Shown here piece by piece: positions 32,360-62,145 of a stretch of DNA of 64,000 nt. The notes below the pieces were generated by a model. That model was given only the letters and a program-made list of their open reading frames with translations, did not search any database and was not told the origin of the DNA. The translations under genes and the position numbers were made by a program. This DNA is from a virus, in the IMG/VR virus record IMGVR_UViG_3300008952_002784, positions 32,001-96,000 of that record, one strand, 5' to 3'. Every line of letters starts with the position of its first letter. The stretch's first letter is position 1.

Positions 32360-33904
32360 ATGTATCTCATACTAACATCTAGCAAAGACACATACATTAC
32401 AAATAAAATTATCAACGGCAAGTTTAGAGCAACTGATGCAAATGTCGGCCGCGCTGGAACACTTGATCTTTTCAAATTGTACGATGAGTCAACACTGACA
32501 GGCGAAGATTCGCCAACAGAGCTATCCAGGATCCTGATAAAATTTGACATAGATCGCCTTAAGTCACTTACCGGATCGATACTTGACATTAGTAATTCAA
32601 CTTTCAAATGTACTCTGAAGTTAAAAAATATACTTGGGGGCCATGCAACACCAAGTAACTATCGAATTGCTGTCTACCCTTTGTCTAAAAGCTTTGATGA
32701 GGGTATCGGTCGTGATGTAATATCATTCAATGATATTGATGGGTGCAATTTTATTACAGCATCATACTCAAATGATACCATATCATCGTGGGAATTGACC
32801 GGTGCGAACAAGCCAGGACTATTAGGAAGCAGTGATATTGACTACATATCATCAGGAAATCTACACTCAGCCGGAATTGAAGACTTGGGTGCAACACAGC
32901 ATTTCGTAGTAGGCGATGAAGATTTGAGCATCGATGTTACAAAAATAATATCAGCAACACTCAAAGATGTAATTCCTGATTTGGGCTTTCGTCTATCGTT
33001 TTCAGGGTCAGAGGAGACAGACTCAAAAACTAGATTTGTAAAGAGATTTGCTTCAAGGCACTCTAGAAATCGCTATAATCAACCACAGTTACATGTATCA
33101 TTTGATGATACACTACACGATCATCATGAATCATTCTTTTTTGACGTAACAGGAACATTGTTTCTAAATAACTTTCATAGAGGACAGCCGTCTAATATAG
33201 TTTCTGGCAGCGGGTTGACACCAGTTGTGGGATCTGATTGTGTGATTGTGCGGCTAATGACAGGATCCTACACAAAATACATCACAGCATCACAGCATAC
33301 AGGAAGCTCTACTAACAAGGGTGCTACGGGTGTTTATTCAGCAACATTTGCACTTCCGTCTAGCACTACAGATATTGTAATTGGAAAAAGTCGTGTAACA
33401 GATTTCGCCAGAATTTCAGGCTCATTGAAATTTGATGAATTTTGGGAAAGCACAGATGGCAAAGTAGGATATTATACTGGTAGTTTGGAAATTAATTCTC
33501 CCAATAGAACAGCTATGAACTTTACATCTAGAAGGCCCATACTGAAAATAATAAATGCTAGAAGTGCTTATACCTCTAGAGACAAAGTAAGATTTAGATT
33601 GTTTGTTAGAGACTACAATGATGAACTAAATACTCCTGTTAAGAGACCGCTCAAGATAAAAAGTGAAGTACTTCAAGAAGTATACTATCGAGTGCGAGAT
33701 GCAGATACAGGCGATATACTGATACCATACGAAAAAAATAAAAATGGTACTAGGCTTTCATCTGATTCTGAGGGAATGTTTTTTGATTTTTACATGTATA
33801 ATCTTTTTCCCGGTAGAGTATATACGTTTGATTTTTTAGTAGTAGATCGTGGTGTTGAGTTTGTAGCAGACAATATTAGCACTAGATTTAGATTGGATGA
33901 ATAA
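32360..33904 (+). CDS. Virion/baseplate protein with DNRLRE-like N-terminal domain
   Basis: 'SKDTYI', 'SRILIKFD', 'FASR...PQLHVSFDD'; position between gp6 and the gp7-like gene. Confidence 0.55.
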   Translation: MYLILTSSKDTYITNKIINGKFRATDANVGRAGTLDLFKLYDESTLTGEDSPTELSRILIKFDIDRLKSLTGSILDISNSTFKCTLKLKNILGGHATPSNYRIAVYPLSKSFDEGIGRDVISFNDIDGCNFITASYSNDTISSWELTGANKPGLLGSSDIDYISSGNLHSAGIEDLGATQHFVVGDEDLSIDVTKIISATLKDVIPDLGFRLSFSGSEETDSKTRFVKRFASRHSRNRYNQPQLHVSFDDTLHDHHESFFFDVTGTLFLNNFHRGQPSNIVSGSGLTPVVGSDCVIVRLMTGSYTKYITASQHTGSSTNKGATGVYSATFALPSSTTDIVIGKSRVTDFARISGSLKFDEFWESTDGKVGYYTGSLEINSPNRTAMNFTSRRPILKIINARSAYTSRDKVRFRLFVRDYNDELNTPVKRPLKIKSEVLQEVYYRVRDADTGDILIPYEKNKNGTRLSSDSEGMFFDFYMYNLFPGRVYTFDFLVVDRGVEFVADNISTRFRLDE

Positions 33905-36900
33905 TGGCGAGTAATAATCCATTCGGCACAGGACCACTTTTCTCTCCGTCAATTGTGAGAAGGCTGGCATCTGAGAATGTTGCATTCAAAGATATGACTA
34001 TCGACAACATGAGCCAGTCACTTCTTTCACCAACAGCATCGTTCATGCATGACCCACCCGGGTCTCCTCTCAAGTCAACCCAGCAAGTGTCTTTAGACTG
34101 GTCTAAATTTGAAAATCACACATTTTTTAATTCAGCAGAAGCAAATGTCAATGTTGCATTTGATACAATTATCAATTACTATCCTTTTGATGGCACTAAG
34201 AGAGAGCTAGATAAATTTCGTAATGACCTTACAGGTTTTGAAAAATATATACTGGATAGATTTCCAAAAAACTTAGGCTATTTGAATTTTTCTGGCACAG
34301 TATCAGGTGAGTCATCTAATGCTGGAACATTTATACGTATCAATGATTATGCTGGGACTACAATGCCGACTCTATCCAGAGATAGAACAGGTAAATCGAT
34401 TCTAGACGCCGGAGTAAATTCACTATCATTTGACTTTCACTTAAGTATACCAAAGAATATTGATCTAGGGCACTCTGTTTTGGTACAGAGGGTCAAGGAT
34501 AAGAAATATGGGTTTACCCTTGTAGTAAGTGAAACAAACGCTGCAGCTGTCTCTGGCGCAATTGAAGTAATAGTATCGTCAGGCAGTCATTTTATGAGTG
34601 CATCAATGGACTTGGCCCGGGGAAGATTCCAGCATATATGCGCAACAATAAACAATACTCCCGGCATTCAAAAGATTGAATTATACAGAAATTTCAAGCT
34701 TAAGTCTACATCATCAATGAGCACAGAAATGGGAGCTTTCGGCTATGCTGATCAACCGATGTTCATAGGATCAGGAACTGCACACGGGCCATATGGAGCT
34801 TCAGAGGGCACAACATGGGTACCAACAACATCGTTCTCCGGATCGATCGATGACTTTCGTATCTTTCATTCTGCTCGAACCCCGAAAATACAAGAAAGAG
34901 AAGCACATCGAAATGTTTACCCTAGCAAGAAGCTTAAGTTATATTTCAAGTTTAATGAACCTACAGGATCTTACTCGAACAACAGTATTCTAATTGACAG
35001 TTCAGGAAATTCACTACACTCAAACATTACAAATTATAGTTCAGCGCTAAGAGAGTTAGACACTTCAGGAATAGAGAATGCCGGACGAACACCCTTAGTA
35101 TTAGAGTCGCTAAGCGAAAATCCTGTTTTATTTCCAGCACATCCAGAACTTATATCACTAAATCAAGATTTGCTAACTTCTGCTTCTAGATATGACTATA
35201 ATAACCCAAATTTAATCACAAAGCTTGTTCCAAAACATTACCTTCACGAGGCATTACAAAATGAAGGTTTCGACTTCCCAGACCCGGAAATAGGCTCAGT
35301 TGGAAATGTCTACGGAGAGTCTAAAAACTTTCCTGGAGGCGGTCAACTAAGCCCACCACATCTAATGGCAACACTTTTGTTTATATGGGCTAAACAATTT
35401 GATGAGTTGAAAATATATCTAGATCATTTTGGCAGAATGTTGCATGTTGATTATGACGACAATGGCACTGTTGCTGATACATTCTTACCTTTTCTAGCTG
35501 AATACTATGGATTTTCATTACCAAACATGACAGCTCATGCATCATTAGGGCAGTACAATAATGGTGAAAATCTAAGACCGGCTTCTGAATTGCATGACAA
35601 CTCACTGAAATATGTCCAGAATCAAATTTGGCGAAGAATCTTGACCGATCTTTCAGAAATCATAAAGTCAAAGGGTACAATTCATAGCATAAAATCGCTA
35701 ATACGTAGGATGGGAATCAATCCGGATCAAAACTTTAGATTTAGAGAATTCGGCGGCTCTAAGTCTAGAAAAATTACAGATGTACGAGAAGCTAGAATAA
35801 CAACAACAAGAATGATATCATTCTCAGGATCGCAAGCAGTTGTTACAGAAGATCTCAACTCTCACGGTATTAGCACTAACAAACCGTTTGCGCAGTCATG
35901 TTTTCTTTCGGGTGCTAGGGTAGAGGTAGGTAAACCAGATCCAGCACCATATTTGCAGTCTATAGGCTATATAACATCCAGTGACTACTCAAAGATAACT
36001 GAGGGTGATAAATTCTTCATCACGTCTTCAGACGGGCAACGCCTTACATTTATATTTGCTGCTAATGCACCTGCAGGTACTAGTGGCTCTATAGAGACTT
36101 GTACTATAAAGATAGCGGGCACAAATAACAATCAAGCACAAGAGATTTATGAAGTTATAACGTCAAGCTTCAGCGGATCTGTTGGCGGAACTTATGATTC
36201 TGATTTAGTAACTGTAATACAATCTAGTAGAGAACGGCTAAACCTGGGTAATAATGCATTTATTTCTGGTACACACAGCCCGGATACAGCTGCTATATCA
36301 TTCCAAGATTTCTCTGGCGGTTCCGGATTCATAAAGCCACACCCGAATAAAGATAAATTTGGAAATCATAGAGATCCTCAAGCTAGTCCAAAAGCACCAA
36401 AGTCTGTACAGCCGTATGGTATACACGGAGTATCTGCAAGAGAGTCAGACGGATTGTTCACTTCAGGATCTTGGACATATGAGGCATACTATGCTTTCCC
36501 AGCAAGAACAGGTTCACTTTCATACAATGTTACACAAAGTTTGTCTAGAGTTTGTACAACAGGATCGGCGGGATCGATAACCGGTTCTGGTGCAATATTG
36601 GCAAACCTTATAGCATTCTCAGGGAGTTCTGATAATTTATCAACAGGCTCACTTACGTTGTACGTAAGGCCTGTGATATCAGGAAGTATGCTAGCACTGC
36701 CTGTTACAGGGGTGAACATATTTGATGGAAACAATTGGCACATTTCATTTGGAAGAATAAGATCAGACCTAACAGGGACTATTAACTCTTCTTCATACTT
36801 TCTTAGAGCTGGCCGCGCATCTAGTGATGGAATAGAAGAGTATCACAGCAAGAGTATTCTCTTTGATGATCATGATGGTACTAACTATTTTGAGTCTTTA

Positions 36901-37908
36901 CACAGCAGTTACAATGCCAGTGGTAGCTTTTTTGTTATCGGATCACAAAGTATTGACGCATATAATCCAAATGCTACAGCCGGTGGCTTTTTAAATGACA
37001 CTAACAAAAATATTCGCCCAAGATGGACGCTATTTGAAGGAAATGTAGGTCAAATAAGATTCTGGTCAAAAGATTTGAACGACACAGAAGACATGGAGCA
37101 TGTACGAAATTTCAAATCATTGGGTGTCTCTAATCCAAAGAAGAATTTTAACTTCGTAACAGTTGAGTCTGGCTCATTTGAAAGACTTCGTGTTGACATA
37201 TCTGCAGATCAAATAAGGACAGGCTCGAATTCCTCAGGATTTATTTCTTTCTTTGATTTCTCTCAAAATAATTTACACCTCTCAGGTACTGGATTTGAAG
37301 CAAATAAACCAGCATGTGTGCCTGTAACATTCCAGCACTCAATGATATCACCATACTTTGATCAAGCAATTAACAATCAAAAAATACGTCCAAGGAGTTT
37401 CAAGAATAGCGAAACGGCACGTAGAAACAAAGTAGAACAAGCACCTTTGCATAAAATACCACCCGGAGAAATTTCTCGAGATGATAAACGTTTTAGTATC
37501 GAAGTATCTTCTGTGCAGGCACTAAATGAAGACATTATCAATATATTCTCAACATTAGATTCACTAGACGAAATAATTGGGTCACCCAACCTTGTATTTT
37601 CTCTTGACTATCCGGACTTAGAAATACTGCGAGACATATATTTTCAGAGGCTGACAACAAAGATCAACAATAGGGCATTTTTTGAGTTTTTCAAGTGGTT
37701 TGATTCAACTATATCTGACATGATTGAAAAACTAGTTCCAAGAAAAACAAGATTTTTGGGAGTCAATTTTGTTATTGAGTCACATATGCTTGAAAGGCCA
37801 AAATTCACTTATAACTATAGCGATATATACTTGGGTGAAAACGATAGACATAGCTTGAAAGGAACACTTTTACTTCGTCAACTAGTAGCAACAATTAGGA
37901 AATATTAA
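33904..37908 (+). CDS. Large baseplate wedge protein (gp7/P2 gpI-like segment) with LamG domains
   Basis: 'FLPFLAEYYGF' and 'KSKGTIHSIKSLIRRMGI' wedge motifs; LamG 'FQHICAT', 'FSGSIDDFRIF', 'LYFKFNE', 'WHISF', 'GQIRFW'. Confidence 0.7.
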   Translation: MASNNPFGTGPLFSPSIVRRLASENVAFKDMTIDNMSQSLLSPTASFMHDPPGSPLKSTQQVSLDWSKFENHTFFNSAEANVNVAFDTIINYYPFDGTKRELDKFRNDLTGFEKYILDRFPKNLGYLNFSGTVSGESSNAGTFIRINDYAGTTMPTLSRDRTGKSILDAGVNSLSFDFHLSIPKNIDLGHSVLVQRVKDKKYGFTLVVSETNAAAVSGAIEVIVSSGSHFMSASMDLARGRFQHICATINNTPGIQKIELYRNFKLKSTSSMSTEMGAFGYADQPMFIGSGTAHGPYGASEGTTWVPTTSFSGSIDDFRIFHSARTPKIQEREAHRNVYPSKKLKLYFKFNEPTGSYSNNSILIDSSGNSLHSNITNYSSALRELDTSGIENAGRTPLVLESLSENPVLFPAHPELISLNQDLLTSASRYDYNNPNLITKLVPKHYLHEALQNEGFDFPDPEIGSVGNVYGESKNFPGGGQLSPPHLMATLLFIWAKQFDELKIYLDHFGRMLHVDYDDNGTVADTFLPFLAEYYGFSLPNMTAHASLGQYNNGENLRPASELHDNSLKYVQNQIWRRILTDLSEIIKSKGTIHSIKSLIRRMGINPDQNFRFREFGGSKSRKITDVREARITTTRMISFSGSQAVVTEDLNSHGISTNKPFAQSCFLSGARVEVGKPDPAPYLQSIGYITSSDYSKITEGDKFFITSSDGQRLTFIFAANAPAGTSGSIETCTIKIAGTNNNQAQEIYEVITSSFSGSVGGTYDSDLVTVIQSSRERLNLGNNAFISGTHSPDTAAISFQDFSGGSGFIKPHPNKDKFGNHRDPQASPKAPKSVQPYGIHGVSARESDGLFTSGSWTYEAYYAFPARTGSLSYNVTQSLSRVCTTGSAGSITGSGAILANLIAFSGSSDNLSTGSLTLYVRPVISGSMLALPVTGVNIFDGNNWHISFGRIRSDLTGTINSSSYFLRAGRASSDGIEEYHSKSILFDDHDGTNYFESLHSSYNASGSFFVIGSQSIDAYNPNATAGGFLNDTNKNIRPRWTLFEGNVGQIRFWSKDLNDTEDMEHVRNFKSLGVSNPKKNFNFVTVESGSFERLRVDISADQIRTGSNSSGFISFFDFSQNNLHLSGTGFEANKPACVPVTFQHSMISPYFDQAINNQKIRPRSFKNSETARRNKVEQAPLHKIPPGEISRDDKRFSIEVSSVQALNEDIINIFSTLDSLDEIIGSPNLVFSLDYPDLEILRDIYFQRLTTKINNRAFFEFFKWFDSTISDMIEKLVPRKTRFLGVNFVIESHMLERPKFTYNYSDIYLGENDRHSLKGTLLLRQLVATIRKY

Positions 37909-39152
37909 TGCCCACTACATCTAGAGTTAATTCAGGGTCAATTACAAGAGGAAGTGTTTCTTCTGAGAGTGGGTCTATTGATTTCCTTAGAGAGGGTGTT
38001 CATATAAGATCTTGGGATCATCTAATCAGAGCAACGGCTGTAAAAGTAAGGGTCGGCTCAGGTGGAAGAATTAAAGTCATCAACGGCAGAGTTCAAACAG
38101 GATCATTTTATCCGTTCAATGATATGGAGTCACCGTCTACTTTTGGATCAATGGGTTATGTATCTCAATCGTATGTGACTTCTTCTACTGGAATTATAAC
38201 AGAGAAATTTACACGCATTGAAAAAGAAAGGTCATCTGTAAGGATGGATTCACACCAGTCTGCTTCTGGATCTATTGCATCGATACCAAGTCACTTCATG
38301 AAATTTGACGATTATGGGCAGCCGCGAGACTTTCAAGATGGAACGCCGTTTTCTGATCAAACACTTTCTGTAGATCGCCACTCTAAAGGGACGATCAACA
38401 CCTCAGATGAAGTAGACTCTTGGAAGAAGCGTTCAGATAATATTTTTCGCGGAGGTGCTATTGAATTCATATCTAGCAACCCCAATACTATTCTTATCTC
38501 ATCTGAAATGGTTGATGCATCAACTTCTCGTCATAATGAGGGAGCAATTGAAATATTCCCAATCAGAGATGAAGCTTCTAGAACGGGTACCGAATTTCCA
38601 TTCTTTGCAAGAGGTGTTAGGGGATCAGTATTCTGCACTGATGAATCTACATTTGGGAATAGTCAGATAATAACAGATCAGTATGAGCCCTACAATGGTC
38701 ACAGAAAAGAGACTTATTTTTTAGACGGAATAGAGTTGTTTGGCGCAGATCTAATAGCATCTCGGAGTTTTGATGTCTCGGGATCTTGGTCTTTGCACTA
38801 TTCTTATCCATTTAATACCGGTACCCTGCAAACAAACAGCACATCAGATCAATTTGCAACAGCTGGCCCTCTTTCAATGCAGGGATTTGTAACAGATCAG
38901 GTTACAGAAATACGACCGTACATCGACAGCACAGACAAGCTTGAAGCTTTGACAAAGCTAGCCGAAGCATCATATGAAGATTCGAATGGCCGAGAAATGT
39001 CAATTGTAGATGCACTTACATATGTGTCATCAAATCTCAGCCTTAACGATAGTGACCTTGGCGTAAACCATAGATATGCAACTCATGGTTTCGACTATAT
39101 CAACACACCTATAGGGACAGACTCAATCGCATTCGGGGGTCTCAAGAAGTAA
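37908..39152 (+). CDS. Putative virion structural protein
   Basis: TAATG-coupled within the baseplate operon; Ser/Gly-rich; C-terminal 'GTDSIAFGGL'. Confidence 0.6.
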   Translation: MPTTSRVNSGSITRGSVSSESGSIDFLREGVHIRSWDHLIRATAVKVRVGSGGRIKVINGRVQTGSFYPFNDMESPSTFGSMGYVSQSYVTSSTGIITEKFTRIEKERSSVRMDSHQSASGSIASIPSHFMKFDDYGQPRDFQDGTPFSDQTLSVDRHSKGTINTSDEVDSWKKRSDNIFRGGAIEFISSNPNTILISSEMVDASTSRHNEGAIEIFPIRDEASRTGTEFPFFARGVRGSVFCTDESTFGNSQIITDQYEPYNGHRKETYFLDGIELFGADLIASRSFDVSGSWSLHYSYPFNTGTLQTNSTSDQFATAGPLSMQGFVTDQVTEIRPYIDSTDKLEALTKLAEASYEDSNGREMSIVDALTYVSSNLSLNDSDLGVNHRYATHGFDYINTPIGTDSIAFGGLKK

Positions 39153-39154: not shown

Positions 39155-42100
39155 ATGCCCACATTCGGCCCAAAAGATGGTAATAAGTTACCATATGACT
39201 TAAAAACAATGTTCGTTTCTGAGAAGGGCGACTTATATCATTCATCAAACGATTTAGTTGCATGGTTTAGAGTTGTATCTGAGCCAGAAACACGAAATGG
39301 TACTTCTGGGTACGAAATGAATGCTCACTTTTCTGAGATTGCTGCATCTTCTGGTTCGTTTTCTGGGTCTATGAATGTCCCACCAGGATTCTCTTCAACA
39401 GAAGTAAAATATCTGACCGGCGCAGTCACATCAGGAAGAGGAAAATCAAGTTTGGATCTCCCTGCTATGGAGATTCTAAGACCCAGACGCGCTAAAACAG
39501 GTAGCTATTTTAAGATAACAGACTCAGAAGCTTTAAAAAATCTTTCTTTTGATGCCGGCGACGGTGGCGACAACAAAGATCCTGCATTTACATTTACATG
39601 CTGGGTAAAGCCACCAGCTAATACGTCCATAGTGAAGAATTCAGCAATTCATAGAGATGCTGTTAGACAATCCGGTACGATGGGATTAGTGTGGAAAGAT
39701 TATCAGTATAGTATGTGGATTAAGACAGGTACACTTGCCTGCTCGATATATCATATAACAGATGATCAAACAAACCCTGCAGGCATAGATAGAATATCTG
39801 CATTTACAGGGCAGGTAATTGGTGATGACCAGCCAGCTACATCTCATACAGGATCACTAAGGTCCGGCCCAGACATGTCAGCACAAAGAGGTCCATGGTG
39901 GCACGTAGCAGCAACATACGATGGGAGCCAAAGCGCGTCGGGAATGAAGCTATATGTAAATGGAATTCCCACACTAGCAGGAACATCTAGTAGATACACA
40001 GGGCCAACATTCTCAGGTGCTTCAGGAATGGTTCATACTGGGAGTGGGTTTTATATCGGTGCTGCAAGAGATGAAGATGACAGAGAAGTTTTCATTACGG
40101 GATCAATTTCTGATGTAGCTATCTGGAAGACAAACTTAACAGACGAGGGAATTAGAGCAGTTTATCATGCATCACTTAACGGAATGCGAAAAGCAAGATC
40201 TGGATATCTAACAAACCCGCCAAGAGTTAGATTGCATGAATATGATAATAAATACGGGACAGATACATACCACTATCCAGCAGCGAAAAGACTGCTAGGC
40301 GATGTTGACTTCAAGGGTAATAAGAAGTCTTGGTATGATGATACTAGATCAATTTATTTTCAATCACCATTTGCAGAATCTAAGATCTATTTTTGGAAAA
40401 GGCCAGAGCACAAGACAAAAATATCGCTAGAGGATAATCGTACAAACCCGCACAAGGTTCACTTTATATTCGATCACAATACTGGATCTGTGGGTGAAAT
40501 AGTCAACATTACTAGCGGCACTACATCTGGCACAGTATTTGACTTGACAGTAGGCATTCAAGGGAAGTATTCTGCTGAGAAAGTAAGTAAGGCATTTATT
40601 CGTGCAGTAAACGAATGTAAGCAACTTCATATTCGTGCAGAAAGATTCTACGACGACGATGACCCAGGAACAGTTTCACCTGTAAGACTAACTCAGCAGA
40701 ATGTGGGTAGCACCGGTAATACTGTCATCGGTTTGACAGGATCAGTCAATATTCACATAAAGAATGTGCCCTCAGGATCACCAGATTTGAGAACACCGAC
40801 TGGGCTGACAGACATAAAGAGATTCACTGGGGGTAGTGAGAGAAAAGTCGTCTATCCTATGATGTTACAATCATCAAGTATTTATCTAACATCATCAATT
40901 GTTAGCCCAAATCTATTTTCACCCCAGTCTCAAGCATCAGGATCATCTAATATAACACCGTCACAATGGGGCGGCGGAATTGTCGCTCCCGGGGTTGTCA
41001 AAAAAGGAGTATCAGATCACAGTGCCAGACACGGGTCTATAGACATAAACCCAGCACGTCTTTTCGAAAGAACAGGCATAAAATCCCAGACAGTCGAATC
41101 AGATTTAGGGCAATACAAATTACAGGGTTCTGGCACATTTGACCAGACAGAGTTCACCCGCGAAGTACTGACGCCGTTTGATGAGTCAGCACATCCGTTC
41201 TCATTTGACTTTAGACACAATAGGTTAGTTGATCCTAAACATAGCACAGATTTGTCTATGTCTGGCGAATTCTTTGGAACGGGATCAAACCCGTCCATTG
41301 TTGGTTATGGATTTGCTTCAAAATTGGGTTCAAAGCATGTAATTGAAATTGATTTGACGCCCACCACCGGATCAACTCAGTTAAAGTATACTACAGGCTC
41401 CGGTCAAATGACAATGGCATACTTTCAATTCAATGAGCATAACAAGGGCGGCTCACCAGCAAAAGGCGACGGACCAGACTATACATATTATGATGCAGAA
41501 GGGCCATCTAGATCATTTAAGGGAATTGGGTTGCAAAAGCAACTGCTTCTTTCTGCATCTGCATCTGACATTATTGACTCTGGTCAAGACGCTCCTGGAG
41601 GTCCAAGTAGCCCATCGACTGCTGAATTAAATTATTTTGTTGATAATCTATACGCCGGCTTTGGCCAGGGTACTTTGCAAAGATCTCATAATGAAAAGTC
41701 ACACCCGGCCGGCCCACGTGGTAAAGGCGCGGGTGTAATAAAGCGCACATGGGATAACGCATCATGGTCATCTCCAATAACTACATTTGGGTTTCCGTTT
41801 CATCCAAAGTATCATGCCACATCATCAATGACCTACCCACTGTCAGGTGTTATCGACGGTCCTTTCTTATTCGAAAAGGCAGTGTATGTATTTAAAGCAA
41901 GGACAACGGGTTCAAATGTTATCTCTTGGGGTGAGGGAAAGAATCAGGACGAAGACTGGGGAGGCCCAGATTACGGCGGCACTACAACAATTTCTGACTG
42001 GTCTAACTTGAGCTATGATACAACGCTCTCTAGCGCTCAACTCGGCCTTCAGTACCCAGCATATGCAAATCTTCCAGCGTACACATTTTTTATTCTGAAT

Positions 42101-45030: not shown

Positions 45031-45408
45031 ATGGCATCAAGCATTGATAAAAAATCGATTAAAACTTCTGAAAAACTATTAGTTGCCGATAATGAAGGCC
45101 AGATTTCATCTTTAGTTTTCCCGCATAAGATGCAAATAGGAATCCCTAGCAAAGATTATAATAGTAATTTAGAAGTGTACGGCTCAGTAATATTAAAGGG
45201 TGAAGAGAGTGTTGTCGCATCAAAAAATACATCGATGTTTCGAGGTGGTGGATTTATTTACGCTAATAGTTCAGTCATGACAGGTTCTCTAACATTTCCG
45301 GAAAATTATAATGGATTGATAATGGGCCCATACGTGATAGGTGATACATGCACCTTGACAATATCATCAGGCTCGTCATTAGTAGTGAAAGGATTTGAAG
45401 ACTTTTAG
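45031..45408 (+). CDS. Small tail-fibre-associated protein
   Basis: C-terminal 'N...TFPENYNGLIMGPYVI...LTISSGSSLVV' resembles phage fibre adaptor motifs. Confidence 0.5.
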   Translation: MASSIDKKSIKTSEKLLVADNEGQISSLVFPHKMQIGIPSKDYNSNLEVYGSVILKGEESVVASKNTSMFRGGGFIYANSSVMTGSLTFPENYNGLIMGPYVIGDTCTLTISSGSSLVVKGFEDF

Positions 45409-50700: not shown

Positions 50701-51374
50701 TTTCTAGAGTTGATCATTTTCTTGTTTGCTGCAGATATATGGGTACAACGAGTGTGCTAGGATCAGTAACACCCGGTCAGTCTAAGGGGTCAACATACAC
50801 ATTTAGAGATTTACAATTGTCCCGTGAGTTGGGTGACATAGAGTACTTTATTATTCTTGTAAATAATAATTATACCAAAACGTACAATCCAACAAAGTCA
50901 GCAACTCTGTCACAATCGTCTGATGTTCCAAGCATATTGTTGAGCTTAAAACATGCACCCAAGAATTCAATGCCGGATAATATTGTAGGTGTTGGAGGTT
51001 CGAAAGCCGGCTCACACAAAGCTGCTAGACTGTCAAGTAAGAATTCTAAGAGCGTTATACCAGGTGGTAGATCTACCAAGACAGGCAAATTTACAATTAT
51101 GCGAGATGCTTCCGGAGTCTCACAAGCAGCATTAGTATCACAGAAAAGCGTCCAAGGTGCAGCTAGGGTAGGATCTACGTCTACAAAAAGAAGATCATCA
51201 TCTGCTTCAAGTAGCAAACCAAAGAAAGCAACTGCATCACAGATCAAATCTTTGTCAGTAGATGAATCTACAGCTAGGTTACAAGGTACATCAAGTTCAT
51301 CTAGGGCTAAGTCTACACAAAGCTCAACAAAAAGATCATCTCGTAGGTCTAGCGGAAAAGGAAGGAACAGGTAA
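47775..51374 (+). CDS. 1199-aa Ser/Thr-rich protein with FN3/Ig-like middle and basic C-terminal tail
   Basis: Low-complexity S/T/A N-terminus; repeated '[FY].D......Y.Y' beta motifs; R/K/S-rich end. Confidence 0.65.
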   Translation: MKVLQQVSTSTTLQQGAANITSGKSSKTSTAASISSLASSPGVTGISVSQGISAASAVSSVSSLATLGTTRMIPITDPSISFSDVFEIDSDRGLSLLVDLLPGQYVDDQNLGVLSTEGDFTYQLRFFIDKTAAISNSVTKVVFKFFEDPTGTATSRETSGLRNTNLNDALSSVSMIKGRTAAYSSAVSALSTSPVVSSVSTISPATSIATSVASVSLTSHQLELISSTSATGYFKEVSVDLSSYLGIDEIPSVTELAGGVLASIPITYTFGVSTAATPTAVSEKITKGSHTTITSQIDLKPKALSVNPFNNAGLENGNGLTTSTTSVTNRMSSNAGVTAVQNSLIDPAALGQLSFSGATISSAMGTSIPGLGSMGASSFSMGNVTSTGINSVATMQSLPNPVAFGVSSPISNLNSNLGSLSIGNDDNKTVLNSTAMSNFSQDLFSNPITDLSAPIDSISTLSLPASIASVSIGEIQSELIEIIQNVSFGIDFLAQREKFYVVVELMGDNGATPIATKEFSVLHRDMLIEFLYPSIPPAVSCTLSLGDVNNIMITQRDPIGTHVRIERKIVDPDNMDNGFQVIEDKILVSPSMGSIIYTDRDANCYNPKSAIYRVTPIGPTGGEGTTFGWTVVNGVPVPEPVKKSDSKYSVVLSAENSGDGIKIELSNISEAIQSITLLKKCYSLRGFPSHSEYTRIPIQGKTVYNLPEGKKSVTVFDKSVVSNYEYLYQCEVHPRGFASSEVANGYALKEYIAPVRDNAAASIDGFTYDKTIGGIKYNLSSTPSEQSYQSIQNLLKLANVAESFIEDLNENRSRLDEMIMFHVSRFNLSSGKKYSYGIYPPGKFEDSAKVQGAKNIPALEPGVTYRYVNELMLTPPEILFKDAVTKISTQGLVETTTSVLSEKFYSSLLGDRRMPSQRELNDRSSSSEKQIYRGRTGIELSQEYTIPAIPPEILSISARKSCLGINNVTFTCSGDISRVDHFLVCCRYMGTTSVLGSVTPGQSKGSTYTFRDLQLSRELGDIEYFIILVNNNYTKTYNPTKSATLSQSSDVPSILLSLKHAPKNSMPDNIVGVGGSKAGSHKAARLSSKNSKSVIPGGRSTKTGKFTIMRDASGVSQAALVSQKSVQGAARVGSTSTKRRSSSASSSKPKKATASQIKSLSVDESTARLQGTSSSSRAKSTQSSTKRSSRRSSGKGRNR

Positions 51375-54300: not shown

Positions 54301-55648
54301 AAACAGTCTAGAATCCTCAGGCATGTCAGATTCTTCTGTGGACTTTTTAGCAAAAATATATACTGCAGCAGCCAAACAACCCGGTGGTAATGAATATCAA
54401 ACATTTAGACACTTGACATCTCAGCAACTATCGCTTAAGTTAGTTGACAAAGAAAGGATGACGTCTGAAGACGGCAGATCATCTTACACAATGAAGTCAG
54501 CCACTATGTGCAAAGCAGAAAGAGTTGCTGTAGACTCACTAGTTGATAAGATTGCCGAAGAAGATGAAGAGTACGGTAACGGTTACATAATATCATCGAT
54601 AGGCATGCCATCAGGAGCAATTGAATTACTTCGAAGACCTACTGGCTTTTCCGGTGAAGCATTATCATCTAACACGTCTACACAAATAAAAGTAACTAAG
54701 TCAACAGTTTCTGAGGTTTTCAAGACTCTTACGTACCCAAGTCAATCTGTGACATTTGACTTTGAATTATTTTTGCTACCAGACTCTTTTGATAGCATAA
54801 CTACCATAGTAGACACTGGAGAAGACACGACAACGTCTGCGTTGTGGGCTGATGTTGTCGATTCTGCAATACTCTATAGAGTAAGAGCTGGAGAAATAGT
54901 AGAATCTGGAAACTGGACATCTCTGGGTATATCTGTAGATGTTGCGGAAGCACATGTTCGAAGCCATGTCGTATCTCTACTATTTTTTGAAATATTTGGA
55001 ATATCACTTTCAGAAGGCGATTTCTTTATCAATAGTATGTCATCAATATCAAAACCGGCTATAGATAAGGAAGCGTACGATACTTTAGAATCAGTGTTAT
55101 CTGACACTAGTGTGGCATCATCAAGCGGACTAAACGCAAATTCTTTGCACAAACTTCTACTGCCGGGAAAACATAACAATGATTTCTATTTTGCTATTTC
55201 TGATGGTACTCTAGACAACACAATTCATGGAAAGGACGTCACAGTTGATGTGGAGGGGACACAAGTAGTCGTTACAACCCCACCGTCAGCAACACGAGAA
55301 GAACTTCGAAGAATTGTCTCACTGGGTCAAACAAATCTTTACGCCGGGAAAATTAAGAATTCTAGAATAATGGCACCGTCTAGATTTGACAGAGTATTTA
55401 ATTTTATGTTACCAAAAGTGTATAGTGACGGTGATCAGGTAAACAACATAGCTTCGTCAGGAACTAGCAACTTGCCTGGCGCGACAGTAGATCTACAGTC
55501 AGATATTCAGTCACTGCAAGATGCAGTAGTCAATTATGATGTAGATGACACCGGAACAAGCACAATTAATGTTGGTAACAATTCAATTGAAGTTAAAGAA
55601 TTGGCTTATCACTTAGATACAATTTACTATTCAGTAGAAATGGTATAA
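51374..55648 (+). CDS. 1424-aa acidic Ser/Thr-rich protein, probably virion-associated
   Basis: Long ORF TAATG-coupled in the structural operon; no recognised domain. Confidence 0.65.
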   Translation: MALTTLGGTTSTTRDTGVATSSSSQTSSKSGTVSADITNLLETGTSYDDLMSVNLTIIADALTEEEEPAGVIDALELGVVSLETVAEPTSQKTRVTVNNSFSLSEVTGFLSDINTDGTRPKVILSIDAADFAVFDTHNLLQARRLVRYMRTSNLDALTDSAMSVDPDGIMTALAENVAVIDEELVDQFAAIQYARKTMNTAADAIDLKFSEVAIMDLAASNSSDLLTDSEASGFIPPASFEGFLKSMVGITGYDPGETSNTKMIAIACNDIVRSIYTLGPGADAGPSRGGQSTTEGYVSFGVTEASSGLPESSTYHNSRKEDLFSPGLHNLSALRFRKSLYSPVWAGDISLIDQLSTDSLSDRAVAIATTLSNILITSAGIGRLSGTEMGSRFSVTDGYGGLEKAFGALPMTVTDNILNMSFEEGSILDSVVIGEELGDTELRILPFESGHYPNQTSPPVVSGRDYFTELPIRYPTAGRTNNFSEFASSFSSIVSDSGDYLEELYAVSEDTNLSPDKILAAVLQEFATYLQKLSISSSSFDYNEMTALSCKVYSEARAHDGVARYDAYSDSEMPSAISSGYAGIDSFYGEATLSSMLSGQYTTSTSGASVRGLTMIQMLARQSYLMSYEYDQLLSDTEKSVIPTSSNLDVFADDVYASDSLSTSVKNYRIALEKHYNSGGSSSVTADGILDETISISPSILSQAESLILFRDMTNNRRGNLSKTSYIEEDGWNIDNSTDPLSLYNGDGFGVITDSPDDSLVYSSVRFTRSLQKAAMELSKRNGADETSYLDSNGLTNFGNVSDNQIMFLVTDLYSTLAKMLFSIKAAWCSSEYQIDTTETTEAQNVALEVKFGGVSGTSDVTLKSGVAMLDWDHDMHQKMSSTLAALVSSIQTGSKLTDLFTSTGEESSIAGVSKTSVISLEGTTPDMLINMLERSKLTRRHVKYCASLLKSVADNLTNSSSNALDLVDFLSNPSTNSLESSGMSDSSVDFLAKIYTAAAKQPGGNEYQTFRHLTSQQLSLKLVDKERMTSEDGRSSYTMKSATMCKAERVAVDSLVDKIAEEDEEYGNGYIISSIGMPSGAIELLRRPTGFSGEALSSNTSTQIKVTKSTVSEVFKTLTYPSQSVTFDFELFLLPDSFDSITTIVDTGEDTTTSALWADVVDSAILYRVRAGEIVESGNWTSLGISVDVAEAHVRSHVVSLLFFEIFGISLSEGDFFINSMSSISKPAIDKEAYDTLESVLSDTSVASSSGLNANSLHKLLLPGKHNNDFYFAISDGTLDNTIHGKDVTVDVEGTQVVVTTPPSATREELRRIVSLGQTNLYAGKIKNSRIMAPSRFDRVFNFMLPKVYSDGDQVNNIASSGTSNLPGATVDLQSDIQSLQDAVVNYDVDDTGTSTINVGNNSIEVKELAYHLDTIYYSVEMV

Positions 55649-55660
55649 GGAGGAGGTACA

Positions 55661-58364: not shown

Positions 58365-58387
58365 TCATCAATTTATAGAGGGTTGAG

Positions 58388-59656: not shown

Positions 59657-59679
59657 TTTTAGTAGTAATATGAGTTTTT

Positions 59680-62145
59680 ATGTCAATAATTCCGCTTACA
59701 TCAGATAATTTTGAATTATTCAAATTAACTGCAAATCCTAAGCGAACATTTACTTCAGGAACAGCAGGAGCAACAGGATCTATACCTGTCTTTCCTCGTG
59801 CATCAAAGATAGAAAAAGATCCCCAGCCCTCTGATGATTTTGGAACAGGCTCTTTTGATGCATCGCAAATTGAAGAGTCTAGAAATCAAGCACTAAGCAA
59901 TTCTTTCCTAACTGGAACACAAGTTGCTGATATTAGTAAGTCTGTTGAATATTATATGGAGATGGTTAACTCCGGAACGTTCTCTCCTGTTCGCCAAAAA
60001 AAGTTAGATATTCTAAGATTTGAGCCGTCTTATAAGTTTACCAGTGACACACTGAGAAAAAATGTAGTTCAGAACATTATGTTTCCGTACTATAAGCATC
60101 GTTACCCTGATTTAGACTGGTCATATTACAATTATCACACATTGAACTTTTTCACAGCGTCAACAGTGCCAAGTGACTCTGTTCTGATATATCCTGCATC
60201 GGGAAATTCGTCGACAAATGATTACCCGTACACCCCATCAGATGGATTTACATTTGAGTTTTGGTTGAATGCAAGGTATTCTAATGATGTCTCCGGTACA
60301 TCTTATACTCCGGGTACTATATTTCACAAATCATCATCATATGCAGTTTCATTAGTTTCTGGAACGTCACGTGATAAGGACGGATTAGTTGACGGCTTTA
60401 GAATTCTTTTGCAGCTAAGCCACAGTGCAGATATTCCGCCGTCTAACATATTGACTACTGGAACGCTCAAGACGAACATTGATGGAACTTCTTTCAAGAA
60501 GGCTGATACCTACTCAGGAAGTGTATCTGGAATAGGTGATCTAATATTCTTGTCTAGTGATAATATGATACAAAAGAACAAGTGGCATCACGTAGCAGTT
60601 CGCTGGGGAGGTCCCAATATCAACAAAGGGACTGGTTCATTTGTCATAGACGGAATTGAAGATACACGTTTCATAATACAATCCTCGTCAATAATGCCAA
60701 CCACATTTTCAAGATCAGGACAAGGTGAGTCTGATTGTCTATTTGTAGGCAATTATTTTGAAGGTGTCAATAATGGTGATGATGATTGGGGTGGAAGTGT
60801 TACTGCACAATTCTTCAATGTCAATGCATCAAAGAAAGATGGCTTGGTAGACTTTTTTCACGGAAAGTCATCATTAGACTCAGCAGATTCTAGAGATCCG
60901 TCGTCTGTATTTTTTCAACACCCACTCAATGCAGAAGTTCACAATCTCAAAATATACTCAGAGCATAGAGATACAGAGCAGATATTCACTTCCAGTATGT
61001 ACGGTGATGAGTCTATAGAAGATAAGCTTCTATTTTTACTACCGCCATTTTTCGTAAAAGAGACAAATACAAGAGACGTGATGCTCACGCCATTCGAAAC
61101 AGAAGAGACAACTACAGATGATCCATTTAATGTATCATTGTCATTCGGTGTAGGCGGCCATCTCATTAATTTAGAAAACTTCTCAAGAGAGTTTGTCAGA
61201 AAGTCTTACCCAAGGCTTTATAATCTAACAGCATCAGTAGTTGAATCTTCTACTGGTGAATTCACAGCAAATCAATTTTTATACAAGACAGGATCAGCCT
61301 CAAAGAGAAATCTTACAGTACTGCCGTGTGATAATGGAAAATTTACCCCTAACTTTACGCTTTTGAAGTCTGGATCTGATCCCGACAATCCCACTTCATC
61401 TGACGAAACATCAAAATTTGTAGATGACATGGGCTTTGCGAAGTATGGTCTTATATCACTTCGCAATATGGTGTCGACATCCTCACTTCCGAGTGGGGCA
61501 CAGTCAACAGGCTCTATCGCAGATGTTTTACAGGGCGCAGGTCCAGAAGACCCAGGAGTCAGTGCAGGATCTATTCTTACAATTCTAAACAGAACACGAG
61601 ATCCCTCATCTAATGAAGTTGTATTTTTTGATGTGTCAAACATGTTTTATGGTAGAAAAATAGTTCCAGGGACATTCAAACTTTATGACTCGAGTGTAAC
61701 AGGTTCTGACGGCAAAGTCAAGATGACAATAAGAGATGACGGCAACGGTCGTCTATATCGCGCAGATAGTAGAACCACTAACGCAACGTGGAATACAATT
61801 GGAAACATCTTGTACGAAGAGGGTATTGTTGTAATAAAGACACCAAACATTCCTTTGCTTGGCATAGATGGTTATGAGGTATCATTGACAGGAGAACATA
61901 ATGTATATGTCATGGAAATGAATATTCCGTGCCCTAAGGGACTAGCCAACTCTTCGTCTAATCCAAACTGGATGCCCCTTAAGCCCACAGACTCTTCAAA
62001 TGAGTTAAGGGATCAGTTTACATACATAACCGGAATTAATCTTCACGATGAAAATCTCAATGTTATAGCTCGAGCAAACCTTTCCCAACCGGTTGTAAAA
62101 AGAGAAGACGATAGATACCTCTTTAGATTCAAGATGGATTTTTAG
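59680..62145 (+). CDS. Virion/baseplate protein with LamG domain; C-terminus paralogous to 58388
   Basis: LamG 'FTFEFWLN', 'KWHHVAVRW', 'FVIDG'; C-terminal 'NSSSNPNW...ITGINLHDENLNVIARANLSQPVVK...FRFKMDF'. Confidence 0.65.
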   Translation: MSIIPLTSDNFELFKLTANPKRTFTSGTAGATGSIPVFPRASKIEKDPQPSDDFGTGSFDASQIEESRNQALSNSFLTGTQVADISKSVEYYMEMVNSGTFSPVRQKKLDILRFEPSYKFTSDTLRKNVVQNIMFPYYKHRYPDLDWSYYNYHTLNFFTASTVPSDSVLIYPASGNSSTNDYPYTPSDGFTFEFWLNARYSNDVSGTSYTPGTIFHKSSSYAVSLVSGTSRDKDGLVDGFRILLQLSHSADIPPSNILTTGTLKTNIDGTSFKKADTYSGSVSGIGDLIFLSSDNMIQKNKWHHVAVRWGGPNINKGTGSFVIDGIEDTRFIIQSSSIMPTTFSRSGQGESDCLFVGNYFEGVNNGDDDWGGSVTAQFFNVNASKKDGLVDFFHGKSSLDSADSRDPSSVFFQHPLNAEVHNLKIYSEHRDTEQIFTSSMYGDESIEDKLLFLLPPFFVKETNTRDVMLTPFETEETTTDDPFNVSLSFGVGGHLINLENFSREFVRKSYPRLYNLTASVVESSTGEFTANQFLYKTGSASKRNLTVLPCDNGKFTPNFTLLKSGSDPDNPTSSDETSKFVDDMGFAKYGLISLRNMVSTSSLPSGAQSTGSIADVLQGAGPEDPGVSAGSILTILNRTRDPSSNEVVFFDVSNMFYGRKIVPGTFKLYDSSVTGSDGKVKMTIRDDGNGRLYRADSRTTNATWNTIGNILYEEGIVVIKTPNIPLLGIDGYEVSLTGEHNVYVMEMNIPCPKGLANSSSNPNWMPLKPTDSSNELRDQFTYITGINLHDENLNVIARANLSQPVVKREDDRYLFRFKMDF

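What the first reader, a model, noticed from the sequence alone, without database searches (positions are those of the whole stretch)
32360..62145. [S/T]-G-S tripeptide concentrated in a subset of virion proteins: candidate sequon for a phage-encoded virion glycosylation system
Seen (manual counts of SGS+TGS): 7 in 32360 (514 aa), 16 in 33904 (1334 aa), 5 in 37908 (414 aa), 21 in 39155 (1954 aa) and 8 in 59680 (821 aa), about 57 in ~5,000 aa, plus many TAS/SAS/SGT variants. Internal controls: 47775 and 51374, which are at least as Ser/Thr-rich, have 0 and 1; 55661, 45417 and gp6 have 0 (1 in ~4,300 aa in total). The ~8,500 aa of glycan enzymes have about 3, two of them inside conserved enzyme motifs. 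In 39155 about a third of [S/T]G dipeptides are followed by Ser, against 1 of ~30 in 51374. Codons vary (acaggatca, tctggttcg, actggtagt), so the signal is at protein level and not a DNA repeat. Established: some actinobacteriophages and giant viruses glycosylate virion proteins with their own GTs. Inference: the adjacent ~13-GT cluster O-glycosylates baseplate/LamG proteins at a dispersed [S/T]-G-S sequon, giving a glycan-coated virion. I know of no described phage sequon of this kind.
Basis: partly seen in the sequence, partly recalled or inferred. Interest (0 to 1): 0.9.

Follow-up and report, generated by a model that had tools for sequence, protein, structure and literature searches.

The report
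Ser/Thr-Gly-Ser tag on phage tail proteins
The outer baseplate, fibre and sheath proteins of this uncultured aquatic T4-like phage and its relatives carry the tripeptide Ser/Thr-Gly-Ser about five times too often, always alongside a conserved pair of phage sugar-transferase genes, so it may mark where the phage sugar-coats its own particle, but no chemistry shows this.

Summary
[ST]GS counts are 7, 16, 5, 21 and 8 in ORFs 32360, 33904, 37908, 39155 and 59680, against 0.85-4.6 expected from shuffles. It is not local composition, not a DNA repeat and not paralogy.

- **Conservation.** 120 homologues of 33904 show about 6x enrichment, mostly at fixed sites. The first hydroxyl is as conserved as the Gly.
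- **Contrast within the virion.** The gp25 and gp6 families are depleted, at 0.12x and 0.28x.
- **Clade limits.** The enrichment recurs in Flavobacterium phage immuto, Microcystis phage Mel-JY01 and Rhodothermus phage RM378. It is absent from T4, Cr30 and LR756511 and weak in P-HM1.
- **Transferase link.** The enriched phages all carry homologues of the GT4 pair 24039/25283. A model supports a heterodimer: score 0.85, best control 0.01.

Glycosylation at these sites is plausible (about 0.4) but unproven. A modification-free structural habit of this clade is nearly as likely. The co-occurrence is confounded by shared ancestry, and LR756508 has the GT4 but little enrichment.

This scan has already reported the same pattern on at least eight other genomes.

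The parts
32360..33904 (+). 514-aa all-beta baseplate-periphery protein, the first gene after gp6. It has 7 [ST]GS and 8 [ST]G[ST].
   Evidence: Counts. AF2 model pLDDT 86.7. Foldseek finds CBM-like jelly roll plus Ig/MG-like sandwiches. Family of 82 is 6.4x enriched, with 7 conserved motif columns.
33904..37908 (+). 1334-aa multi-LamG baseplate protein with 16 [ST]GS and 21 [ST]G[ST].
   Evidence: Pfam Laminin_G_3 at 33.5 bits. AF2 and Foldseek find LamG/pentraxin-like folds. 120 homologues are 6.06x enriched. 19 motif columns are kept in at least 30% of sequences.
37908..39152 (+). 414-aa variable virion protein with 5 [ST]GS.
   Evidence: p 0.005. Family of 24 is 3.2x enriched, but only 1 motif column is conserved.
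39155..45019 (+). 1954-aa variable LamG-bearing virion protein with 21 [ST]GS and 30 [ST]G[ST].
   Evidence: Laminin_G_3 at 43.8 bits. Family of 32 is 4.3x enriched. Only 129 of 442 motif instances lie in shared columns of a poor alignment.
59680..62145 (+). 821-aa virion protein with 8 [ST]GS and 14 [ST]G[ST].
   Evidence: Its Laminin_G_3 hit is below the cut-off, 21.9 against 27.6 bits.
45031..45408 (+). 125-aa protein with 2 [ST]GS. Weak and not significant on its own.
   Evidence: p 0.065.
24039..25286 (+). GT4 glycosyltransferase A of the conserved pair. Its stop overlaps the next gene's start.
   Evidence: Pfam Glycos_transf_1 at 52.9 bits. E286 and E294 are invariant in 18 sequences. 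Present in 43 of 43 related loci that reach far enough upstream. Homologues in immuto, Mel-JY01 and RM378.
25283..26452 (+). GT4 glycosyltransferase B of the pair.
   Evidence: Pfam at 35.3 bits. E276 and E284 are invariant in 41 sequences. Present in 47 of 47 loci. Predicted heterodimer with A: ipSAE 0.85, best control 0.01.
555..23093 (+). Soluble glycan-building island. It holds six further GT-type ORFs, GDP- and dTDP-sugar enzymes, and amino-, formyl-, methyl- and sulfotransferases plus a radical SAM enzyme.
   Evidence: Pfam. No ORF has more than one marginal hydrophobic segment.
29996..32348 (+). gp25-like (167 aa) and gp6-like (615 aa) inner baseplate wedge proteins, both motif-poor.
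   Evidence: GPW_gp25 Pfam hit. No [ST]GS in either. Families: gp25 1 vs 8.4 in 80 sequences, gp6 13 vs 47.2 in 82.
47775..55648 (+). Two Ser/Thr-rich proteins (1199 and 1424 aa) of unknown fold, nearly without the motif.
   Evidence: 0 vs 3.46 and 1 vs 3.12. No Pfam, PHROG or PDB sequence match. The Atlas gives only weak FN3/Ig-like leads, scores at or below 0.84.

Best explanation
[ST]-G-[ST] is a short linear recognition site in loops of the outward-facing tail, baseplate, fibre and sheath domains. A soluble phage-encoded GT4 heterodimer (24039 with 25283) reads it in the cytoplasm and places a first sugar on a motif hydroxyl. The variable downstream or adjacent glycan island then extends the sugar. 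The virion periphery ends up glycan-coated.

Shown:
- The motif is enriched.
- It is conserved.
- It is confined to peripheral virion proteins.
- It is limited to one clade.
- The GT4 pair is conserved in that clade.
- The GT4 pair keeps its invariant E-x7-E residues.
- The island is soluble.

Model only: the GT4 heterodimer.

Inferred:
- Proteins are the acceptors.
- The motif is the site.
- The acceptor residue is the first Ser/Thr.
For: 1. **Hydroxyl selection.** In the 33904 family the first motif position stays Ser/Thr in 0.84 of sequences, against 0.56 for other Ser/Thr. Ala, Asn and Asp appear at 1.8, 0.9 and 0.9%, against 6.1, 4.9 and 3.9% elsewhere. The hydroxyl is as conserved as the Gly at 0.78. 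The 32360 family behaves alike.
2. **Many unrelated sequences.** HMMs of four 33904 domains match only 39155 (E 7.6e-6) and weakly 59680 (E 0.025) among the 120 ORFs. The motif also fills the N-terminal, non-core 170-660 region of both sheath paralogues and a fibre.
3. **Varied structural settings.** In two AF2 models the motif Gly is coil at 22 of 29 sites. Settings include two 2-residue hairpins, strand starts, long loops and helix ends. It is no nearer to strand ends than other Gly: 14/29 vs 37/106, p 0.2.
4. **Density kept without fixed positions.** The variable 39155 and 37908 families keep 4.3x and 3.2x enrichment, although only 129 of 442 and 13 of 137 instances fall in shared columns.
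5. **Depletion in inner parts.** gp25 0.12x, gp6 0.28x, GT4s about 1x. The contig's other 110 ORFs show 37 vs 32.8.
6. **Clade-specific.** T4 has [ST]GS in only 2 of the 18 ORFs scanned (gp9 and a helicase; gp6, gp7, gp8, gp10, gp12, fibritin and sheath have none), and Cr30 and the LR756511 region show none. P-HM1 shows 1.3-2.3x. Strong enrichment occurs in immuto, Mel-JY01 and a six-gene RM378 cluster (21 vs 3.3), all of which have the GT4-A/GT4-B pair.
7. **Synteny.** 47 of 47 loci with at least 3.7 kb upstream of gp25 have GT4-B, and 43 of 43 with at least 5.4 kb have both.
8. **No export machinery** in the island.
9. **DNA is an unlikely acceptor in immuto.** Its nucleosides were reported as three canonical ones (dA and dC are named in the passage I read) plus fdPreQ1 replacing dG (bioRxiv 10.1101/2023.04.13.536721, passages).
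10. **Heterodimer model.** Score 0.85 against best control 0.01. That mark was reached by 58 of 80 solved complexes and 2 of 110 mismatched pairs. Runs agree in at least 96% of contacts, and partner pLDDT is at least 90.
Against: - No chemical evidence exists for any glycan on any of these proteins, and I found no virion proteomics for a clade member.
- All phages with both the GT4 pair and the enrichment belong to one far-T4 clade. gp6 and MCP searches find the same few records. The co-occurrence may therefore be one inherited event, not repeated association.
- LR756508 has a GT4-A homologue (30% identity) but only weak enrichment: the 1400-aa protein has 2 vs 0.88 [ST]GS and 5 vs 1.37 [ST]G[ST].
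- 47775 and 51374 are Ser/Thr-rich and sit in the virion gene block. They have 0 and 1 sites, which needs a separate explanation.
- In the conserved families most of the excess sits at fixed positions inside well-conserved blocks flanked by hydrophobic residues (1453 of 1864 instances). That also fits a structural role.
- In fibres the motif is part of short periodic repeats.
- Enzymes are not depleted below expectation: 3 vs 4.6.
- The heterodimer score is a model's confidence. It may reflect likeness to solved GT-B pairs.
- Exposure of the sites could not be computed.
Confidence: 0.4

Rival explanations
1. The motif is a structural habit with no modification. [ST]-G-[ST] would be a preferred turn or strand-capping element of the beta-sandwich and beta-fibre domains in this clade's outer virion proteins, inherited and spread by domain exchange within the clade. 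The GT genes would then act on something else, such as host envelope precursors or a small molecule.
For: - All modelled motif-rich proteins are beta-sandwich arrays.
- Two sites are textbook 2-residue hairpins, at 33904 residue 226 and 32360 residue 301.
- Flanks are hydrophobic and poor in charge: 0.41-0.47 hydrophobic at -3 to -1 and +1, against 0.30 background.
- Several sites are landmark LamG strands.
- In the 33904 family the non-conserved instances (411) are about the number chance predicts, so fixed sites carry the excess.
- Fibre copies are periodic.
- LR756508 has the GT4 but little enrichment.
- Gly followed by Ser/Thr is a favoured type II' turn pair. This is recalled textbook knowledge, not tested here.
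Against: - Universal structural rules should also show in T4, Cr30 and P-HM1 beta-rich baseplate proteins. They do not.
- The structural settings of the motif are mixed and no different from those of other Gly.
- Asp and Asn, the usual stand-ins for Ser/Thr in capping turns, are almost excluded at position 1.
- No sequence homology links most motif-rich regions.
- Variable families keep the density without keeping positions.
Confidence: 0.35
2. The motif is read by another clade-specific factor. This could be a different modification, for example phosphorylation by the PrkA-type kinase that another first reader noted upstream on this contig. It could also be an assembly chaperone that grips [ST]G[ST] loops of outer virion proteins.
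For: The selection on hydroxyls and the clade restriction call for a clade-specific reader, but do not name it. A first-stage note lists a PrkA/YeaH/SpoVR triad about 17 kb before the window (not checked by me). Immuto encodes GroEL/GroES as annotated.
Against: I did not test whether any such factor co-occurs with the motif across the clade. The GT4 pair did co-occur wherever it could be seen. Nothing links a kinase or chaperone to this tripeptide.
Confidence: 0.12
3. The enrichment is a by-product of composition, low complexity, a DNA-level repeat or post-hoc selection of proteins.
For: The five proteins were picked after looking. They are rich in Ser, Thr and Gly.
Against: - Four of the five survive Bonferroni correction over all 120 ORFs.
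- Block shuffles keep the signal.
- Permuted tripeptides are near expectation: GSG 8 vs 4.7, SSG 8 vs 6.4, GSS 8 vs 6.4.
- Codons match the background.
- The pattern repeats in 120 homologues and in three cultured phages.
Confidence: 0.01

Closest known systems
Virion O-glycosylation of mycobacteriophages by phage-encoded glycosyltransferases (Freeman et al. 2023, Cell Host Microbe). The paper is not held. I know it only through the passage and reference in PMC12619734 and from recall.
   Same: A tailed phage encodes its own GTs and would decorate its own virion proteins in the host cytoplasm.
   Different: There the glycans sit at the C-termini of the capsid and tail-tube subunits (PMC12619734 passage). 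Here the candidate sites are a dispersed internal tripeptide in baseplate, fibre and sheath domains. The GTs are a conserved GT4 pair in a T4-like clade. Nothing here has been shown chemically.
GtfA/GtfB priming complex of serine-rich-repeat adhesins in Gram-positive bacteria (review PMC6973325, passages)
   Same: Two adjacent GT-type proteins form one cytoplasmic complex that puts the first sugar on Ser/Thr of a protein. A variable number of further GTs extend it.
   Different: GtfA and GtfB interact through DUF1975, and GtfB is a non-catalytic chaperone. The phage proteins have no DUF1975 hit, and both keep an invariant E-x7-E. The substrates are long Ser-rich repeats exported by SecA2/Y2, not a dispersed tripeptide in folded beta-sandwiches.
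Autonomous glycosylation by giant viruses and chloroviruses (PMC4691112 and PMC9614988; search listings and abstract starts only)
   Same: A virus-encoded, cytoplasmic, export-free glycan factory with rare-sugar pathways acts on virion proteins.
   Different: Those are eukaryotic viruses with other GT families. From recall, chlorovirus capsid glycans are N-linked at atypical sites. None is a bacteriophage tail.
Bacterial autotransporter heptosyltransferases, which read a strand / short loop / strand motif
   Same: A cytoplasmic GT that recognises a short Ser-bearing loop between beta strands rather than a long linear sequon.
   Different: The enzyme family, sugar and substrates differ. The resemblance is a lead from memory and was not tested.
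Virus-encoded GTs that hypermodify DNA with glycans (Pyle et al.; bioRxiv 10.1101/2023.12.21.572611, abstract start only)
   Same: Phage GT clusters without export genes.
   Different: The acceptor there is 5hmC in DNA. This contig has no Tet_JBP or thymidylate-synthase-family hit, but it is only about 40% of a genome. Immuto DNA was reported with three canonical nucleosides plus fdPreQ1.

Membership tests
Laminin_G_3 / concanavalin-A-like jelly roll (fold of the motif-rich proteins) | Pfam PF13385 hit above the gathering score | tested here: met
   33904 scores 33.5 bits and 39155 scores 43.8 bits, against a cut-off of 27.6. 59680 scores only 21.9 bits, below the cut-off. 32360 and 37908 have no hit.
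Laminin_G_3 / concanavalin-A-like jelly roll (fold of the motif-rich proteins) | Predicted fold matches solved LamG, pentraxin or CBM jelly rolls | tested here: met
   33904 model: 4dqa E 1.7e-8, PAPP-A, laminin LG5, pentraxins. 32360 model: CBMs 8wab and 7vbo, prob 1.00.
GT4 retaining glycosyltransferases (24039, 25283) | Glycos_transf_1 domain above the cut-off | tested here: met
   52.9 and 35.3 bits against a cut-off of 26.4.
GT4 retaining glycosyltransferases (24039, 25283) | Conserved E-x7-E motif (the motif's meaning is recalled) | tested here: met
   E286/E294 are invariant in 18 sequences and E276/E284 in 41. The local alignment is shown.
GtfA/GtfB-type protein O-GT priming complex | Two GT-type proteins form a complex | tested here: inconclusive
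   The model supports binding: ipSAE 0.85, best control 0.01. That mark was reached by 58 of 80 solved complexes and 2 of 110 mismatched pairs. This is a model only.
GtfA/GtfB-type protein O-GT priming complex | DUF1975 interaction domain (PMC6973325 passage) | tested here: not met
   The Pfam scan of both proteins lists only PF00534, PF13692 and PF20706.
GtfA/GtfB-type protein O-GT priming complex | Serine-rich-repeat substrate exported by an accessory Sec system | tested here: not met
   The candidate sites are dispersed tripeptides in folded domains. There are no polytopic membrane proteins in the island.
Phage-encoded virion glycosylation (mycobacteriophage type) | Phage-encoded GTs in the genome | tested here: met
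   Eight GT-type ORFs with Pfam support in the window.
Phage-encoded virion glycosylation (mycobacteriophage type) | Glycan shown on virion proteins | not testable with these tools
   This needs staining or mass spectrometry of virions. No such data were found.
Lipid-linked (Und-P) glycan pathways with an oligosaccharyltransferase | Polytopic initiating transferase, flippase or polymerase | tested here: not met
   Hydropathy scan: within window 1-26452 only ORF 5602 has one marginal segment, at 1.66. The contig is about 40% of a genome.
DNA glycan hypermodification systems | 5hmC-forming enzyme (Tet/JBP or dCMP hydroxymethylase family) | tested here: inconclusive
   No PF12851 or PF00303 hit on the contig. 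The record is a fragment, and the PF12851 control rang nowhere.

The most novel reading that the evidence does not exclude
A true linear O-glycosylation sequon, [ST]-G-[ST], is read by a soluble virus-encoded GT4 heterodimer that primes a glycan coat on the whole outer tail, baseplate, fibres and sheath. The system would be conserved from thermophilic RM378 through cyanophage and Flavobacterium phages to uncultured aquatic jumbo phages. Inner parts and some fibre proteins would be kept free of the sequon by selection.
Probability: 0.37. Interest if true: 0.85.

Novelty: new variant of a known kind. Interest (0 to 1): 0.62.

Why it matters
Phage-encoded virion glycosylation is known from only a few actinobacteriophages, and no acceptor rule has been reported there.

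If the tripeptide is a sequon, several things follow:
- Glycosylation sites could be read straight from sequence in a widespread aquatic phage clade. More than 1,450 homologues of a single motif-rich protein were found.
- It would explain why this clade carries variable sugar islands without export genes.
- It would give a compact two-enzyme, three-residue system for glycoengineering.

The idea is directly testable, because three members are in culture: immuto, Mel-JY01 and RM378.

If it is only structural, it is still an unusually strict, clade-wide turn rule, worth knowing for modelling tail proteins.

Tried and rejected
- **GenBank phage searches.** tblastn of 33904 and 32360 against GenBank phages found nothing.
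- **Upstream locus search.** A single-protein locus search with 27931 found no relative.
- **S-CBWM1 as identity.** I guessed that the phage might be Synechococcus phage S-CBWM1, which has a similar size. That fails because its GC is 51.6% against about 38% here.
- **Paralogy.** HMMs of 33904 domains match only 39155 and weakly 59680.
- **DNA-level cause.** Rejected.
- **Local composition.** Rejected.
- **Strand-end association.** I expected the motif to sit at strand ends more often than other glycines. It does not: 14/29 vs 37/106, p 0.2.
- **Fold of the negative controls.** Pfam, PHROGs, PDB sequence search and the Atlas gave nothing usable for 47775 and 51374.
- **GT4 similarity to a known protein O-GT.** PDB sequence hits are generic GT4s, among them a chlorovirus GT, 3oy2.
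- **Literature.** Searches found no phage sequon of this kind and nothing on Mel-JY01. Freeman et al. 2023 is not held. Supplements are closed and were not seen. They might hold virion proteomics for immuto or the 'moraphages'.
- **Moraphage membership.** I did not test whether this phage belongs to the 'moraphage' lineage of PMC12619734.
- **First hand-in.** One search was returned for a missing confidence field. This call repeats it with that field added.

Full report
**What the window is.**
The window is bases 32001-96000 of a 136,953-bp linear virus contig. CheckV rates the contig at about 40% complete.
- It encodes a T4-type major capsid protein (Pfam Gp23, E 4e-76), two tandem tail-sheath paralogues of more than 1000 aa, and gp25- and gp6-like baseplate wedge proteins.
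- The nearest GenBank phages by capsid, gp6 and GT4 are Microcystis phage Mel-JY01, Flavobacterium phage immuto, two uncultured huge phages (LR756508, LR756511) and Rhodothermus phage RM378. Capsid identity is 31-44%.
- Related IMG/VR contigs of 242 and 267 kb are rated 57% and 78% complete. This is probably a piece of a jumbo far-T4 phage.

**The observation.**
- The controls hold too: 47775 has 0 (expected 3.46), 51374 has 1 (3.12), 55661, 45417 and gp6 have 0, and the 9171 aa before position 27000 have 3.
- TGS is the single most enriched tripeptide of the five proteins, at 31 vs 4.1. SGS is 26 vs 6.4, SGT 14 vs 4.1 and TGT 9 vs 2.6. NGS (0 vs 3.0), AGS (3 vs 2.8) and the permutations GSG, SSG and GSS are ordinary.
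- Shuffling inside 10-40-residue blocks does not remove the excess.
- Codon use in the motif equals the background, and 62 of 80 nine-mers are distinct.
- Over all 120 ORFs of the contig, four of the five proteins pass Bonferroni correction. Ten ORFs hold 85 sites against 17.6 expected, and the other 110 hold 37 against 32.8.
- The further enriched ORFs lie outside the window: a 1426-aa fibre-like protein ([ST]G[ST] 20 vs 7.2) and both sheath paralogues. The sheath sites lie almost all in the non-core residues 170-660. These are nominal, not Bonferroni-significant.
- The capsid protein (3 vs 1.14) is not significant.

**Conservation.**
33904 has more than 1,450 homologues at E<=0.001.
- The 120 best, mostly 42-52% identical, carry 1455 [ST]GS against 239.9 expected. 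That is 6.06x, with a range of 2.4-10x.
- 1453 of 1864 [ST]G[ST] instances fall in 19 alignment columns, and ten of the query's sites are kept in at least 80% of sequences. The remaining 411 are about what chance predicts.
- At motif position 1 the hydroxyl is kept in 0.84 of sequences, against 0.56 for other Ser/Thr. Ser and Thr interchange freely, while Ala, Asn and Asp are nearly excluded. Position 3 tolerates Ala. The Gly is kept in 0.78.
- In 82 IMG/VR loci the family-level ratios are: 32360 6.4x, 33904 5.7x, 39155 4.3x, 37908 3.2x, 46783 5.3x, gp25 0.12x, gp6 0.28x, and the GT4s about 1x.
- The variable 39155 and 37908 families align poorly and share few motif columns, yet keep the density. 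Poor alignment may hide some conservation.

**Structure.**
AF2 models were built with family alignments. 33904 residues 1-1200 gave pLDDT 77.3, and 32360 gave pLDDT 86.7.
- Both are arrays of beta-sandwiches: LamG/pentraxin-like in one, CBM-like jelly roll plus Ig/MG-like domains in the other.
- The motif Gly is coil at 22 of 29 sites. Two sites are 2-residue hairpins. Others start strands, end helices or lie in long loops.
- The motif is not closer to strand ends than other glycines: 14/29 vs 37/106, p 0.2.
- Flanks are enriched in hydrophobic residues and poor in charge.
- In fibres and spikes of immuto the motif is part of short periodic repeats.
- Coordinates are not given, so exposure was not measured.
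- HMMs of four 33904 domains find only 39155 and weakly 59680 in the contig. The motif-rich proteins are therefore not simple paralogues.

**The glycosyltransferases.**
Pfam supports eight GT-type ORFs in the window, plus these sugar-pathway and tailoring enzymes:
- an RmlA-like nucleotidyl transferase and an RmlD-like reductase
- GDP-mannose dehydratase and epimerases
- UDP-sugar dehydrogenase
- two aminotransferases
- formyl-, methyl- and sulfotransferase domains
- a radical SAM enzyme

No ORF of the island is a polytopic membrane protein.

The two GT4 genes next to the baseplate block, 24039 and 25283, overlap by four bases. They are distant paralogues that both keep an invariant E-x7-E.
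- Among related loci, 47 of 47 with at least 3.7 kb upstream of the gp25 homologue have the 25283 type. 43 of 43 with at least 5.4 kb have both. The other 34 loci with a gp25 hit end too early to tell.
- Five of five long relatives have the pair plus one to four further GT2 matches and up to two further GT4 matches, at varying positions.
- The same A-then-B pair is present in immuto and Mel-JY01, preceded there by a PD-(D/E)XK nuclease as in the window. It is also present, more weakly, in RM378. Glycan islands of different size follow in immuto and Mel-JY01.
- A complex prediction supports an A-B heterodimer. The score is 0.85 and the best of 3 controls is 0.01. That mark was reached by 58 of 80 solved complexes and 2 of 110 mismatched pairs. 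Runs agree in at least 96% of contacts, and partner pLDDT is at least 90. My own alignments were used, so those counts hold only roughly. This is a model, and likeness to solved GT-B pairs could contribute.

**Co-occurrence test.**

| Phage | GT4 pair | Result |
|---|---|---|
| immuto | yes | Enriched: post-gp6 proteins, spikes (26 vs 5.7), a 373-aa protein (12 vs 1.3), sheath (7 vs 1.25). Enzymes, gp6, portal, terminase and tape measure show none. |
| Mel-JY01 | yes | Enriched: nine proteins around and after gp6, e.g. 11 vs 1.46 and 9 vs 0.6; sheath 4 vs 0.95. |
| RM378 | yes (weaker) | Enriched: six adjacent proteins, 21 vs 3.3. |
| T4 | none found | Of 18 ORFs scanned, only gp9 and a helicase hold one [ST]GS each; gp6, gp7, gp8, gp10, gp12, fibritin and sheath hold none. 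|
| Caulobacter phage Cr30 | none found | No enrichment. |
| LR756511 (40-kb region) | none found | No enrichment. |
| Prochlorococcus phage P-HM1 | none found | Weak, 1.3-2.3x. |
| LR756508 | GT4-A at 30% identity | Weak: 2 vs 0.88; [ST]G[ST] 5 vs 1.37. |

The enrichment is therefore a trait of the clade that owns the GT4 pair, with LR756508 as a partial exception. Because it is one clade, the association may rest on a single ancestral event.

**Other targets of the GTs.**
For immuto, published nucleoside analysis found three canonical nucleosides (dA and dC are named in the passage read) and fdPreQ1 in place of dG (bioRxiv 10.1101/2023.04.13.536721, passages read). That argues against DNA as the sugar acceptor there. 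On this contig I found no Tet/JBP or thymidylate-synthase-family gene, but the record is a fragment and one control was silent.

**Reading.**
A selected, hydroxyl-dependent, loop-borne tripeptide is confined to outer virion proteins of one clade. That clade always encodes a soluble GT4 pair and export-free sugar islands. This is most simply explained as an acceptor site for phage-encoded O-glycosylation, and I put that at about 0.4. A modification-free structural habit inherited within the clade is close behind, at about 0.35. It is favoured by the fixed positions, the hydrophobic flanks, the periodic fibre repeats, the LR756508 exception and the complete lack of chemistry. Another reader, such as a kinase or chaperone, gets about 0.12.

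**Comparison with the known.**
- The system resembles mycobacteriophage virion glycosylation, known to me only through PMC12619734 and recall.
- It also resembles the GtfA/GtfB priming complex of serine-rich-repeat adhesins (PMC6973325 passages). It fails that family's DUF1975 and substrate criteria.
- My four literature searches on phage virion glycosylation, jumbo-phage GTs and phage O-glycosylation sequons returned no description of such a sequon. Supplements were closed.
- PMC12619734 describes an aquatic jumbo lineage with four core GT orthogroups. I did not test whether this phage belongs to it.

**Earlier notes of this scan.**
The same pattern has been reported and followed up on at least eight other genomes, with the same verdict. 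Those are not independent evidence. One of them pointed me to PMC6973325.

Noticed in passing
window 24039-26452: The two GT4 genes overlap by 4 bases and are predicted to form a heterodimer. The last eight residues of A (408-415) pair with residues 244-252 of B. Score 0.85 against 0.01 for the best control.
   Followed up: yes
window 26458-26760: A 100-aa protein directly after the GT4 pair has one strong N-terminal hydrophobic segment (mean hydropathy 2.55). It is conserved in 46 of 82 related loci. Function unknown.
   Followed up: partly
window 3638-5605: One 655-aa ORF fuses a methyltransferase domain to a sulfotransferase domain. This hints at a methylated, sulfated sugar in the phage glycan.
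   Followed up: no
window 47775-51374: This Ser-rich (16%) 1199-aa protein has 0 [ST]GS against 3.5 expected and 1 [ST]G[ST] against 5.3-5.9. That looks like avoidance rather than neutrality. Four homologues in relatives show 1 vs 3.9.
   Followed up: partly
window 45417-46748: A 443-aa tail fibre ends in a Peptidase_S74 intramolecular chaperone domain. It has no [ST]GS.
   Followed up: no
L007 13634-19915 (contig 121634-127915): Two tandem tail-sheath paralogues of 1064 and 1012 aa each carry about 700 extra N-terminal residues. Most of their motif copies sit in that extension.
   Followed up: partly
L094 33742-35233 (Mel-JY01 83441-84932): The GT4-A homologue of Microcystis phage Mel-JY01 is annotated as two ORFs (573 and 909 bp) that match the N- and C-halves of 24039. 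It could be a frameshift, a sequencing error or a real split.
   Followed up: no
L089 27194-30355 (immuto tail spike): The N-terminal 380 residues hold runs of short repeats built on the motif, each ending in a G-D-G-S-x-L-T-G-like element. This looks like a fibre-shaft repeat.
   Followed up: no
L103/L101, RM378 64825-75968: Six adjacent unannotated RM378 proteins carry 21 [ST]GS against 3.3 expected. On that basis they are probably its baseplate and fibre module.
   Followed up: partly
window 62145-63706: A RuvC-like nuclease and a DnaG-type primase follow the virion block directly.
   Followed up: no
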